From assembly GCF_016026235.1 (NCBI RefSeq), contig NZ_CP065613.1: a DNA stretch of 64,000 bases. The stretch is one strand, 5' to 3'. The DNA comes from Escherichia coli (GTDB lineage: Bacteria > Pseudomonadota > Gammaproteobacteria > Enterobacterales > Enterobacteriaceae). Made by a program: the position numbers. Shown here in pieces: positions 38,601 to 41,600 of this stretch. Positions within the stretch are counted from its first letter, which is position 1, and each line of letters opens with the position of its first letter.

Positions 38601-41600
38601 TGAACGCCAACTTCGTCGATGATCAGCAAATCCATTGACGCATAACGCTCAATAACTTCATCCGCTGTTTTTTCGCTGTCATTCCGCCAGCAATTTTTCA
38701 CAGCACGGGTAAGGCGCATCACGTCGGTGATCTCCACACTGGCCAGATAGTTACGGATGATGTGTTTTGCCATTGATACCGCCAGATGATTTTTCCCGGT
38801 TCCGCAACTGCCGGTCATAACAAGACTGGTACCGTTCTCCAGCATATCTGGCCAGTTCTCCGCATAGCGGCGACAGGCCGCAAGATTCCTGGCTGCGTCA
38901 GGATTAACCTCCAGATAATTATCAAACTCGCAGTCCCGAAAACGCAGGGCAATTCCGGCGTTATCAGTCAGCTCTTCCGCCTTGATGGACGACAGCTCCA
39001 TGGTCAAATCGTTGGCCTCAGCGATTAAGCAGTCAGGGCAGCATGAAATTTTTTCTCTGTCCTCGCCATTACGATCGCTCCACACCAGTATATGCGTGTG
39101 ATATTCGCCATGTTTTTCGCAATATCCGCGACCTTCACGCATCAGGCAGGAACGATAAGGCCATGGCTTTTCGCCCTTCTGAGCAAATGCAATCTCTGCC
39201 CGTAACTCATCCATTCGCGCCTGTAGTCTTTTTTGTTGTTCACGCAGGTTAAACGTCATCATCGCTGTCACCTCAGAATGTCAGTTTGTCACTGGATTTA
39301 CCGAATTTGTCAGACATGGCTCCCAGGCCAGCCAGGACATCGACCTGTCGCTGTCGCCCACCTCCGGGAGCGGCTGGCTGTTGCCAGAAGTCTTCGAAGT
39401 GACGATCGGGTCCAAAGAACGTCGCTGCCTGCTTCACGAACTGTGTGCCGTTATTTCCTGTGGCACGTACCCAGGCAGCATACCGCTTCACGCCATCAAG
39501 CATGGTCTCCGGTTTTATTCCCTCCCTGATACGGGCTTTCCAGGCTTTGAAGGCTGCTGACTTGGAATTGCCACCAGCACGTTTGGGATATTCCTGCCAG
39601 GCCTGTTCAAATTCCGGTGAATATTCCTGTCGGGCAGAACGCGCTGGTGCAGACGCGTCAGCGGATGCGCCAATAGTGTTTTTACTCTCTGTAGTATTCT
39701 CTGAAGTAATCTCTGTTGTATTCTCTGTAAGATCGAAATTGGTTTTCCCTTCTCCGCGGCGAGGGGTTTCCCGTGTCCGCGGTGAAGGCTTTCCCTCCTC
39801 CGCGAAATTGGGTTTTACAGTTTCCCGAAAACGGGTTTCCCCATTTCGGGAAAACTGATTGTTTTCATTGATAATTTCATTAAGGCGCTCACAATCTATA
39901 CGGTAGAACATTTTGTGCTCAAGACGCTTGTTGGTTTCAACCAAAATGCCTCTGGACACAAGATGCTTACGCGCTACAGCCTGTTGTTCAAATGTAAGTC
40001 CGGTTTCGTGTTGTATCTCTTCACGCGTTTTATGTACGCCTTCCGCTGCATGTGCTTTATCCTGCCAGTAAAAAATCTGACCAAAGAAAATAACAGCGTG
40101 CGGACTTCCCATGTATTTAACGAGCCCAGGGTAATAAGCAACCGGATGCCCAAAATCGAGCAGAAGATCAGACGGACGCATAACCACCTCCCAGGCGTTT
40201 AAACATTTTTCCGGACTGAAACGCCACCAGCGGATAACTCAGGGTATGAGTACGTCCCTGAACCTGGCAGACAACCTTCTGGCTTTCTGTATTGACCAGG
40301 CAAACCCGCAGAACGTGACCGTTGCTGGTGGTGAACCACTGCCCCACTCGGGGGCAACGGTTGTATCGGTGATACAGGGAATTAACGACGCGGCGAATCA
40401 TGGGCGCACCTCCCATTGATTACGACGGAAAACAGTGTGATTCAGGTTGGTTTCAGCCTCATGGAATGCTTCAATACAGCTCTCGTAGTACCGCATTGTG
40501 CGCAGACTTAACCCAAGCTGAAGCATCATCAGCCCATCAAGGGTGATGTAATAACCACGCAGGGAATCGCCATAGATGTGATAAGTGCCAGGTATGAAAT
40601 TGCGGGTAAAAAATTCGCGCGAGCAGTTCAGGTACTCGATTTTGTCGACGATATTCTGGTGCATGCGCTTGAAGTGGCAGGCAACATGCAAAGAAAAAAT
40701 AACGGCCTTGCCGTTGACGGTCTCAATTTTGAGGAATGAGTGGGTTGGGACTGTAGCCATGATGGCAGCCTCCGTTGACTGTGGAAAACTTCCACCACCG
40801 GAGGTGCAAATCTCGCTGGTGGCGGACTGAACAGGGTTTGCACTACCGGCGTCAACGGAGACCGGCGAGCCTTTCGGCTCCCCTGCCCAGCCCACCATAA
40901 TTCTGGCGTGCGTGAGCGCGGACGATAAAAAAGACGCTGGCGCGTCGTATATCGCCGTTGACAATTCCGGGGTGCAAATCCCGGCACCCGCTTTATAAGG
41001 TGCAGAGACAGTGTAACGTCCCGAAATTGCAGAATCAATATCTTGGAGAACAATCATGCAGCACCCGCCAGTTCTTTATCGTGAGTAAATTCGCCATTCC
41101 AGTTTCTCTTCATGGGTAATGCACCTCTAAGATACTGGCGATAAATCCAGACCGCCCCTTTCTGGAGAAGAACTGGTGTGTACGAATAAAACCCTTCTTC
41201 ATAACCTGAATCGATATAGTGGTGACGTTCGGTCAGATACAGATCTCGGGCATATGCCTTTACACGCCATGCGGGGCTTCGCGATTCAGGACGCTCGTCA
41301 TAAAGCCAGTTGTGAGCCTCCAGAAATGCTGTGATGCGCTGAACATTTACTCCATTAAGTTGCTTGCAGAACTGAACCGGTGTCATGCCAGGCTGGAATA
41401 AATTTTCCAGATGTTCGATGTATTGGGCCTGACGATGAACGTAACTAATTGCTCTGTTTTTAGCCTCATATTCGTCCGCCCAGGCACGGGCAGCAGCAGC
41501 CGGATCGCTAAAATCTGGTAGGGATGCCATTGTGGTAAGACAGTAATTCCCCGTTTTACGAATTGAGGGAATTACCTCCGATGTAATCCACCGTTTAAAA

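What the first reader, a model, noticed from the sequence alone, without database searches (positions are those of the whole stretch)
40761..41053. GC-rich non-coding-looking tract inside the early-right operon
The 5' 100 codons of the listed ORF 40398-41057 are low-complexity (Ser/Gly/Ala/Pro-rich) and the DNA is GC-rich with a GAGCC-GAAA-GGCUC GNRA-type hairpin on the transcribed strand. It sits between the Bro-N gene and a short Rha-like gene and may be a structured RNA, an origin-associated element or a remnant.
Basis: seen in the sequence. Interest (0 to 1): 0.25.

Follow-up and report, generated by a model that had tools for sequence, protein, structure and literature searches.

The report
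IsrK–C4 antisense RNA immunity module
The GC-rich "non-coding-looking" tract is a well-known prophage RNA switch: a small decoy RNA (IsrK) followed by the C4 antisense RNA, which masks the ribosome-binding site of the next gene. It is not the start of a protein, although databases label it "ash family protein".

Summary
On the minus strand, 41038..40761 holds no conserved protein. It holds a complete P1/P4/Gifsy-1-type RNA immunity module:

- its own sigma-70-like promoter;
- the IsrK RNA (Rfam RF01394, 61.8 bits), which carries target copies a1 and b1 and ends in an intrinsic terminator;
- target copies a2 and b2, with b2 covering the Shine-Dalgarno sequence of the 120-aa Rha-like gene (ATG at 40760).

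In 93 distinct related modules with 33 different a'/b' combinations, the C4 segments a' and b' have exact complements at fixed distances upstream and downstream. Stems and target pairings covary (95–97% paired, against about 40% when the partner is slid).

The "219-aa ORF" shows no coding signature in its first 99 codons. Differences fall 0.34/0.34/0.31 by codon position and pN/pS is 0.8–1.3. The Rha part gives 0.20/0.18/0.61 and 0.18.

The Pfam "Ash" model (PF10554) that matches this stretch also matches the translated P4 CI-RNA region. The module is already described in the literature, so this is ordinary. The one useful by-product is the annotation artefact.

The parts
41033..41038 (-). -35 hexamer TTGATT of the module's own promoter
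   Evidence: Read from the sequence. There are 17 nt to the -10 hexamer. The block ATATTGATTCTGCAATTTCGGGACGTTACACT is conserved in relatives behind at least 8 unrelated upstream sequences, and more distant modules (P1 P1c4, 24B, APSE-2) have TTGAC-type -35 hexamers at the same place. At 8 of 12 consensus matches it is below the threshold of the consensus scan.
41010..41015 (-). -10 hexamer TACACT; predicted transcription start G at 41003
   Evidence: The start site is inferred from the 5' end of the Rfam isrK model and from the spacing; it was not measured.
40927..41003 (-). IsrK RNA (= c4-a1b1 element = P4 seqA): two hairpins, a linker and an intrinsic terminator
   Evidence: RF01394 at 61.8 bits (gathering 50), model positions 1-77 of 77. 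A weak overlapping RF03163 c4-a1b1 match scores 17.8 bits. Hairpin 1 covaries, with 6 of 7 pairs changed on both sides.
40972..40978 (-). a1 site UUUGCAC, in the loop of IsrK hairpin 2, complementary to C4 a'
   Evidence: I6.
40955..40962 (-). b1 site GUCAACGG in the IsrK linker, complementary to C4 b'
   Evidence: I4.
40927..40946 (-). IsrK intrinsic terminator: GACGC-GCCA-GCGUC followed by U6
40815..40902 (-). C4 antisense RNA gene. The mature RNA is predicted to span about 40896..40817, with an RNase P-type 5' end at G40896 and a tRNA-like ACCA after the closing stem.
   Evidence: RF01695 at 80.1 bits (gathering 45), model positions 1-87 of 87. The minimum-free-energy fold equals the Rfam structure, at -50.7 kcal/mol with z = -5.3. 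In relatives, 8 of 17 P1 pairs and 5 of 5 P2 pairs covary. The mature ends are inferred from the annotated P1 c4 RNA.
40867..40880 (-).
   Evidence: Weinberg 2010 supplement: the P2 loops of C4 RNAs are often GNRA or UNCG.
40851..40860 (-). b' : CUCCGUUGAC in the P3 loop of C4
   Evidence: I3.
40837..40843 (-). a' : GUGCAAA in the single-stranded joint of C4
   Evidence: I2, I6.
40804..40810 (-). a2 target UUUGCAC, 5 nt after C4
40770..40779 (-). b2 target GUCAACGGAG, which overlaps the Shine-Dalgarno GGAGG (40773..40769) of the Rha-like gene
40398..40760 (-). Regulated gene: 120-aa Rha-domain protein (ATG 40760), first gene ahead of the replication genes
   Evidence: Pfam PF09669 at 30.0 bits against a cutoff of 29.9. 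PHROG 995/518, Rha-like regulator or anti-repressor. 40% identical to the 181-aa Rha-family protein at the equivalent position after the module in Salmonella phage 118970_sal3. Coding signature: 0.20/0.18/0.61 by codon position, pN/pS 0.18.
40761..41057 (-). Spurious 5' extension of the listed 219-aa ORF (the "Ash domain")
   Evidence: No codon periodicity and pN/pS of about 1. It contains a promoter and a terminator. PF10554 also matches the translated P4 CI-RNA region.

Best explanation
The tract is a self-contained RNA immunity module of the P1 immI / P4 seqA-CI-seqC / Gifsy-1 isrK type, transcribed leftwards on the minus strand.

Shown here (sequence and comparative evidence):
- A sigma-70-like promoter (41038..41010) sits at a fixed distance upstream of the IsrK start (41003).
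- The IsrK region ends in a terminator-like hairpin followed by U6. IsrK displays a1 in a hairpin loop and b1 in a single-stranded linker.
- The C4 gene follows (40902..40815).
- C4 segments a' and b' are complementary to a2 and b2 in the leader of the next gene. b2 overlaps that gene's Shine-Dalgarno sequence.

Inferred from the P1, P4 and Gifsy-1 literature:
- Most transcripts stop at the IsrK terminator, giving the short IsrK RNA.
- Read-through transcripts carry C4, which is cut out, with its 5' end made by RNase P as in P1, to give a stable RNA of about 80 nt.
- C4 pairing with a2 and b2 blocks translation of the 120-aa Rha-like protein. As in P1 and P4, this is likely to cause polarity or premature termination, lowering expression of the downstream O-like and DnaC-like replication genes.
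- IsrK, through a1 and b1, competes for the same C4 segments and so relieves the block. This was proposed for a1/b1 in P1 and observed as IsrK-dependent activation in Gifsy-1.

The first 99 codons of the 219-aa ORF are an annotation artefact. They are the translation of these RNA genes.
For: - Rfam: C4 at 80.1 bits and isrK at 61.8 bits, both full length and above their gathering scores.
- Fold: C4 folds on its own into the family structure.
- Layout: the spacing matches the annotated P1 region a1-b1-c4-a2-b2-icd almost base for base.
- Target sites in the window: the motif a(7 nt)-N5-35-b(8 nt) occurs only at a1b1, at a2b2 and on the antisense of C4 in 64 kb, against 0.01 expected by chance.
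- Target sites in relatives: 93 distinct modules carry 33 a'/b' combinations. The exact complement of a' is found at a2 in 93/93 and at a1 in 93/93 (at least 6 nt). The complement of b' is found at b2 in 92/93 and at b1 (at least 6 nt) in 61/93, all at fixed offsets.
- Covariation of stems plus a'-a2 and b'-b2: 95.2% of cells paired, 34 pairs with changes on both sides, 0/500 shuffles as good, and slid controls at 37-46%.
- Covariation of a1-a' and b1-b': 96.7% paired, score 0.81 against 0.20 in shuffles.
- Promoter: the block is conserved behind unrelated upstream sequences.
- Non-coding test: the codon-position split of differences is 0.34/0.34/0.31 here and 0.20/0.18/0.61 in the Rha gene. 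pN/pS is 1.30 (IsrK) and 0.79 (C4 plus leader), against 0.18. Indels of 7, 8 and 1 nt occur in the IsrK part.
- Distant relatives: P1, APSE-2, 24B, ArgO145, Kp4865-1, Stx2 II and RCS47 keep the RNAs at 66-81 bits but have stops in all three frames.
- Pfam: PF10554 matches the translated P4 CI-RNA region at 76.8 bits and the obsolete P4 "cI gene product" ORF. P4 epsilon is PF25738.
- Literature: Weinberg 2010; Barquist 2013, "IsrK-C4 immunity system" in P4 and lambdoid prophages; Hershko-Shalev 2016, Gifsy-1 isrK-orf45-anrP with STnc1160 processed from read-through transcripts.
Against: - Nothing was measured here: there is no expression, processing or repression data for this prophage.
- The promoter matches only 8 of 12 consensus positions and was not reported by the scan.
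- The window's IsrK scores below the gathering score of the c4-a1b1 model (17.8 against 46.7), and its own fold is not unusually stable (z = -1.5).
- The regulated protein is a short Rha-domain protein (Pfam 30.0 against 29.9) whose antirepressor activity is only inferred.
- The frame from the AUG inside C4 (40898) to the downstream ATG is open and in phase in all 85 modules of the 138/141/144-nt distance classes, despite three different 3-nt indels. Gifsy-1 orf45, which lies in the same place, was reported to be translated. Some translation through the C4 region therefore cannot be excluded.
Confidence: 0.88

Rival explanations
1. The 219-aa ORF is a genuine Ash-Rha fusion protein, as RefSeq and Pfam annotate. 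On this reading the N-terminal 99 residues form a real "Ash domain" and the RNA matches are incidental.
For: - The ORF is open, and its ATG overlaps the Bro-N stop codon (ATGA).
- Pfam PF10554 matches at 55.2 bits.
- RefSeq names homologues "ash family protein".
- PHROG families include this stretch.
- The frame is open across the whole tract in 83 of 92 related modules.
Against: - There is no third-position excess, and pN/pS is 0.8-1.3 against 0.18 next door.
- Indels of 7, 8 and 1 nt occur in the IsrK part.
- Distant relatives have stops in all frames while keeping the RNA structure.
- A promoter and an intrinsic terminator lie inside the "domain".
- The variable positions are exactly the mutually complementary a and b segments.
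- PF10554 also matches the translated P4 CI-RNA locus. The literature cited describes that P4 immunity factor as an RNA.
Confidence: 0.04
2. Dual use: besides giving the C4 RNA, the unprocessed read-through transcript is translated from the AUG inside C4 (40898) in phase into the Rha-like gene. This would act as a leader ORF, or give an N-terminally extended protein, that couples translation, as reported for Gifsy-1 orf45-anrP. On this reading IsrK activates by opening that start site rather than only by titrating C4.
For: - Gifsy-1: SPA-tagged orf45 is translated, and a stop codon placed early in orf45 lowers IsrK activation of anrP.
- Here: the distance from the C4 AUG to the downstream ATG is a multiple of 3 in 6 of 7 length classes (129, 132, 135, 138, 141, 144, against 134).
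- That frame has no stop in all 85 modules of the 138/141/144-nt classes, while the other frames usually do.
Against: - There is no amino-acid constraint (pN/pS 0.79).
- No Shine-Dalgarno sequence precedes AUG 40898.
- In P1, APSE-2, 24B and others the frame has stops.
- The AUG lies in the closing stem of a very stable structure (-50.7 kcal/mol).
- The related modules are not independent samples.
Confidence: 0.3
3. Mechanistic variant of the P4 type. On this reading the main output is premature transcription termination that keeps the downstream replication genes (O-like 40187..39273, DnaC-like 39271..38384) silent in the lysogen. Control of the Rha-like protein as such would be secondary.
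For: - The P4 seqA-CI region is recognised by the same two Rfam models, and CI RNA acts by transcription termination.
- The module sits directly upstream of the replication genes.
- The IsrK terminator lies in the path of early-right transcription.
Against: - b2 covers the Shine-Dalgarno sequence exactly as in P1, where the primary event is a translation block.
- The only terminator-like hairpin downstream (40715..40701) is not preserved at synonymous sites in relatives.
- No termination data exist for this prophage.
Confidence: 0.3
4. The tract is an origin-associated element (iterons) or a decayed gene remnant.
For: Only the position next to the replication genes and the GC-rich composition.
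Against: - There are no iteron arrays. The only repeats are the a1/a2 and b1/b2 copies and their complements in C4.
- The element is intact, matches two RNA models over their full length, and covaries.
Confidence: 0.01

Closest known systems
P1/P7 immI region (a1-b1, c4 antisense RNA, a2-b2, icd-ant)
   Same: - The order and spacing of all five RNA elements are the same.
- C4 has the same three-helix fold.
- b2 lies over the ribosome-binding site of the next gene.
- The module has its own promoter just upstream of a1.
- A tRNA-like 3' end follows the closing stem.
   Different: - The a' and b' sequences differ, so the immunity specificity differs.
- The a1b1 part ends in an intrinsic terminator, so a separate short RNA (IsrK) is expected.
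- The regulated gene is a 120-aa Rha-domain protein followed by replication genes, not icd-ant1/2.
- The host element is a lambdoid prophage, not a P1 plasmid prophage.
Gifsy-1 isrK-orf45-anrP locus of Salmonella (Hershko-Shalev 2016, PMC4825925)
   Same: It has the same RNA families in the same order in a lambdoid prophage. The published "orf45" occupies the C4 position, and STnc1160 is the processed RNA from it. The downstream gene there is the antirepressor AnrP. In the one Salmonella prophage compared here (phage 118970_sal3), the protein at that position is a Rha-family protein 40% identical to the window's.
   Different: - Here the C4-internal frame runs without a stop into the downstream gene, whereas in Gifsy-1 the stop of orf45 overlaps the anrP start.
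- The downstream protein is shorter (120 against about 180 aa).
- The a'/b' specificity differs.
- No antQ link was examined.
P4 immunity (seqA, CI RNA, seqC)
   Same: The P4 region is matched by the same Rfam isrK and C4 models, at 60.8 and 74.9 bits. It has the same logic of one antisense RNA with one target upstream and one downstream, placed ahead of replication genes.
   Different: In P4 the outcome is premature transcription termination of an untranslated leader. The spacing between the IsrK-like part and the C4-like part is also longer there.
Pfam PF10554 Phage_ASH / RefSeq "ash family protein"
   Same: The HMM matches residues 15-105 of the listed ORF, at 55.2 bits.
   Different: The matched stretch shows no protein-level selection. 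The model also matches the translated P4 CI-RNA locus, but not P4 epsilon. The match is treated here as a translated-RNA artefact, not as family membership.

Membership tests
C4 antisense RNA (Rfam RF01695) | Full-length match to the covariance model above the gathering score | tested here: met
   80.1 bits against 45, model positions 1-87 of 87, E = 2e-15.
C4 antisense RNA (Rfam RF01695) | A long closing stem enclosing two hairpins, supported by compensatory changes | tested here: met
   The minimum-free-energy fold equals the family structure. P1 stem 99.9% paired with 8 of 17 pairs changed on both sides; P2 5 of 5 pairs changed on both sides.
C4 antisense RNA (Rfam RF01695) | Single-stranded a' and b' complementary to a2 and b2 downstream, with b2 over the ribosome-binding site | tested here: met
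   Matches of 7 nt and 10 nt; b2 overlaps GGAGG, which ends 8 nt before the ATG. The sites covary in 93 modules.
C4 antisense RNA (Rfam RF01695) | Second target copy a1, b1 upstream of the RNA | tested here: met
   a1 is 7 nt and b1 is 8 nt, at -76 and -60 from C4.
C4 antisense RNA (Rfam RF01695) | Stable RNA of about 77 nt, cut from a longer transcript by RNase P | not testable with these tools
   Only the tRNA-like stem end followed by ACCA can be seen in the sequence.
C4 antisense RNA (Rfam RF01695) | Represses synthesis of an antirepressor | not testable with these tools
   The downstream gene is a Rha-domain protein with weak PHROG anti-repressor matches. Its activity is unknown.
isrK Hfq-binding RNA (Rfam RF01394) | Full-length match above the gathering score, ending in an intrinsic terminator | tested here: met
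   61.8 bits against 50, positions 1-77 of 77; terminator hairpin plus U6.
isrK Hfq-binding RNA (Rfam RF01394) | Own promoter, giving a short RNA plus read-through mRNA | tested here: inconclusive
   A conserved -35/-10 block lies at a fixed distance behind unrelated upstream sequences. It matches only 8 of 12 consensus positions, and there are no transcript data.
isrK Hfq-binding RNA (Rfam RF01394) | Binds Hfq | not testable with these tools
   None available here.
c4-a1b1 motif (Rfam RF03163) | Match above the gathering score | tested here: not met
   17.8 bits against 46.7 in the window. Relatives in 24B, Stx2 II, L038 and P1 pass, and in the first three the match overlaps the isrK match. 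The a1 and b1 complementarity itself is met.
Pfam PF10554 Phage_ASH (protein domain) | HMM match above the gathering score | tested here: met
   55.2 bits against 26, residues 15-105.
Pfam PF10554 Phage_ASH (protein domain) | The stretch evolves as a protein (codon periodicity, purifying selection, frame kept in relatives) | tested here: not met
   Codon-position split 0.34/0.34/0.31; pN/pS 0.79-1.30; indels of 7, 8 and 1 nt; stops in all frames in distant relatives. The model also matches the translated P4 CI-RNA locus.
P4 seqA-CI-seqC immunity | Homologous RNA elements in the same order ahead of replication genes | tested here: met
   The same two Rfam models match P4. Replication genes follow in the window.
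P4 seqA-CI-seqC immunity | CI-dependent premature transcription termination | not tested
   The only downstream terminator-like hairpin (40715..40701) is not conserved at synonymous sites.

The most novel reading that the evidence does not exclude
In this lambdoid subgroup the C4 gene may be a true dual-function element. The same 138 nt would give the processed antisense RNA and would also be kept as an open frame, in phase with the regulated Rha-like gene, so that ribosomes starting at AUG 40898 run into that gene.

On this reading the "Ash domain" (PF10554) carried by many prophage "Ash/Rha" proteins, which one published screen also used as a marker for P4 epsilon, is a translated-RNA artefact. 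The module would also act as an RNA-based second immunity layer gating the replication genes.
Probability: 0.3. Interest if true: 0.4.

Novelty: already known. Interest (0 to 1): 0.15.

Why it matters
For the biology, very little is new. The IsrK-C4 module, its targets and its presence in lambdoid prophages are published, and a 99% identical copy of this tract sits in a deposited Stx2a phage genome, with homologous modules in several hundred others.

The practical value is for annotation:
- This locus should carry two ncRNA features and a 120-aa Rha-like CDS starting at 40760, not a 219-aa "ash family protein".
- Work that treats the PF10554 "Ash domain" as a protein of unknown function in Stx-phage replication regions (PMC8951638), or uses it as a proxy for P4 epsilon (PMC8628076), is in effect detecting this RNA module.

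Tried and rejected
- Third b-like site. CGUCAACGG at 40719..40711, inside the Rha-like gene, is complementary to the C4 P3 loop and overlaps a terminator-like hairpin (40715..40701). I tested whether such a site follows the b' type in relatives. It does not: the sequence encodes the conserved VNG and is present whatever the b' type. Non-cognate loops hit downstream regions almost as often, and the hairpin and T-run are not kept at synonymous sites. Rejected as a functional site.
- Origin or iteron reading. No repeat arrays were found.
- tRNA or tmRNA. There is none in the tract.
- Consensus promoter scan. It found nothing in 40300-41400. The promoter was instead recognised by conservation across relatives.
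- Direct Pfam scan of translated DNA references with stops.
- Other weak Rfam matches in the neighbourhood (D12-methyl, PK-BYV, ST7-AS2) are far below their gathering scores and were ignored.
- Anti-Shine-Dalgarno hairpin in the a2-b2 leader (CCUCCG pairing with CGGAGG). It is only marginally more stable than shuffles (z = -1.95) and was not pursued.
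Full report
**Observation**

The tract 40761-41053 is GC-rich: 56.3% overall and 63.6% in its core, against 45-48% in the two flanking genes. The first 99 codons of the listed ORF 40398-41057 are 47% Ser/Gly/Ala/Pro, against 17% in the remaining 120 aa. The hairpin GAGCC-GAAA-GGCUC lies on the minus strand at 40880..40867. The tract sits between a Bro-N gene ending at 41054 and a Rha-domain gene. One correction: the downstream ATG is at 40760. As RNA, the 293 nt fold much better than shuffles (z = -5.6).

**What it is**

An Rfam scan finds two full-length matches on the minus strand, both above their gathering scores:
- C4 antisense RNA (RF01695) at 40902..40815, 80.1 bits against a gathering score of 45;
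- isrK (RF01394) at 41003..40927, 61.8 bits against 50.

C4 alone folds into the family structure as its minimum-free-energy state (-50.7 kcal/mol, z = -5.3).

The segments of C4 that are single-stranded in that structure have exact complements on both sides:
- b' (CUCCGUUGAC, 40860..40851) pairs with b2 (GUCAACGGAG, 40779..40770), which overlaps the GGAGG that ends 8 nt before the ATG at 40760. It also pairs with b1 (40962..40955) in IsrK.
- a' (GUGCAAA, 40843..40837) pairs with a2 (40810..40804) and with a1 (40978..40972), which lies in the loop of IsrK hairpin 2.

In the whole 64-kb window the combined a-plus-b motif occurs only at a1b1, at a2b2 and on the antisense of C4. Chance expectation is 0.01.

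The order and spacing reproduce the annotated P1 immunity region a1-b1-c4-a2-b2-icd almost base for base. IsrK ends in an intrinsic terminator (40946..40933 plus U6).

**Relatives**

DNA searches find matching sequence in 586 of 5426 complete E. coli genomes (an 801-base query spanning the tract and part of its flanking genes) and in 371 phage records. The phage records include Stx phages, a Salmonella Gifsy-like phage, Klebsiella phages, APSE and P1-like RCS47.

In all 20 loci scanned, an isrK or c4-a1b1 match and a C4 match occur as a pair. Some operons carry two or three pairs in tandem.

I extracted 93 distinct modules. They carry 33 different a'/b' combinations:
- the exact complement of a' is present at a2 in 93/93 and at a1 in 93/93;
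- the complement of b' is present at b2 in 92/93 and at b1 (at least 6 nt) in 61/93;
- all sites are at fixed offsets.

On an 82-sequence alignment, the stems plus a'-a2 and b'-b2 are 95.2% paired, with 34 pairs changed on both sides. Slid controls give 37-46% and 0/500 shuffles do as well. The pairings a1-a' and b1-b' are 96.7% paired, with a covariation score of 0.81 against 0.20.

A block holding TTGATT, 17 nt, TACACT and 6 nt before the IsrK start is conserved behind at least eight unrelated upstream sequences. More distant modules, including the mapped P1c4 promoter of P1, have TTGAC-type hexamers at the same position. The unit of homology is therefore promoter + IsrK + terminator + C4 + a2b2 + ribosome-binding site.

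**Is the 219-aa ORF real?**

A naive check says yes. RefSeq annotates homologues as "ash family protein", sometimes fused over two modules. Pfam PF10554 (Phage_ASH) matches residues 15-105 at 55 bits, and PHROG families include the stretch.

The evolutionary signature says no. These figures come from 74 distinct sequences that share the downstream gene:

| Region | Differences by codon position (1/2/3) | pN/pS |
|---|---|---|
| Tract ("Ash" part) | 0.34 / 0.34 / 0.31 | 1.30 (IsrK); 0.79 (C4 plus leader) |
| Rha-like gene | 0.20 / 0.18 / 0.61 | 0.18 |

- Indels of 7, 8 and 1 nt occur in the IsrK part.
- P1, APSE-2, 24B, ArgO145, Kp4865-1, Stx2 II and RCS47 keep both RNAs at 66-81 bits but have stops in all three frames.
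- PF10554 matches the translated P4 region that holds seqA and the CI RNA at 76.8 bits. It also matches the obsolete P4 "cI gene product" ORF. P4 epsilon is a different family, PF25738.

The "Ash domain" is thus the translation of this RNA module.

One residual point remains. The frame from the AUG inside C4 (40898) to the downstream ATG is open and in phase in all 85 modules of the 138/141/144-nt distance classes, despite three different 3-nt indels. That fits the report that Gifsy-1 "orf45", which lies in the same place, is translated and coupled to anrP, although its amino-acid sequence is not conserved. I keep this as a rival or additional layer.

**Mechanism**

Shown here:
- the RNA structures and the target complementarities;
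- the overlap of b2 with the Shine-Dalgarno sequence;
- the terminator-like hairpin plus U-tract at the 3' end of IsrK and the conserved promoter block;
- the coding status of the neighbouring stretches.

Inferred from P1, P4 and Gifsy-1:
- most transcripts end as IsrK;
- read-through transcripts yield processed C4;
- C4 masks a2 and b2 and blocks translation of the Rha-like gene, probably with polar effects on the O-like and DnaC-like replication genes that follow;
- IsrK competes through a1 and b1 and relieves the block.

**Comparison and novelty**

C4 and c4-a1b1 were defined by Weinberg 2010. [quoted passage not shown] Hershko-Shalev 2016 dissected the Gifsy-1 locus and noted the P4 parallel. 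The deposited phage Stx2_14040 carries a 99% identical tract. The finding is therefore an already known element.

The only by-product of note is the annotation artefact. The papers I could search treat the Ash domain as a protein domain of unknown function or use PF10554 as a marker for P4 epsilon.

Noticed in passing
window 40711-40719 and 40701-40715 (minus strand): A third b-like site (CGUCAACGG) complementary to the C4 P3 loop lies 45 nt into the Rha-like gene. It overlaps a terminator-like hairpin AACGGCAAGGCCGUU followed by a U-rich run. It does not follow the b' type in relatives, and the hairpin and T-run vary at synonymous sites, so it is probably coincidental.
   Followed up: yes
L001 3148-4358; also L009, L038, L049, L060, L075: Some related prophages carry two or three IsrK-C4 modules in tandem in one operon. 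Each has a different a'/b' pair and precedes its own Rha-like gene. The a' and b' types are recombined in many combinations: 33 among 93 modules.
   Followed up: partly
window 40898..40761 and the related modules: The frame from the AUG inside C4 to the regulated gene's ATG is kept open and in phase (distances 138, 141 and 144 nt) in 85 lambdoid modules, although there is no amino-acid constraint.
   Followed up: partly
L095 (phage P4, record 8168-8584 and upstream): Pfam PF10554 "Ash" matches the translated P4 seqA/CI-RNA region and the old "cI gene product" ORF, not epsilon (PF25738). One published screen for P4-like satellites used PF10554 as the epsilon profile.
   Followed up: partly
window 35564-35874 (minus strand): A cluster of four tRNA genes (Met-CAT, Arg-TCT, Thr-TGT, Gly-TCC) lies about 5 kb to the low-coordinate side of the module.
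   Followed up: no
window 8857-9036, 7897-8100 and 62581-62661 (minus strand): Other Rfam matches above their gathering scores: CssrB (a Shigella chromosomal sRNA, 230 bits), IS009 and the Peptidase-S11 RNA motif.
   Followed up: no
window 41054-42076: The listed 340-aa Bro-N ORF is probably too long. RefSeq homologues are 274 aa (825 nt), which corresponds to a start near 41878.
   Followed up: partly
window 40922-40943 and 41061-41082: A 22-nt inverted repeat (73% complementary) links the IsrK terminator region with the 3' end of the Bro-N gene. Its meaning is unknown.
   Followed up: no
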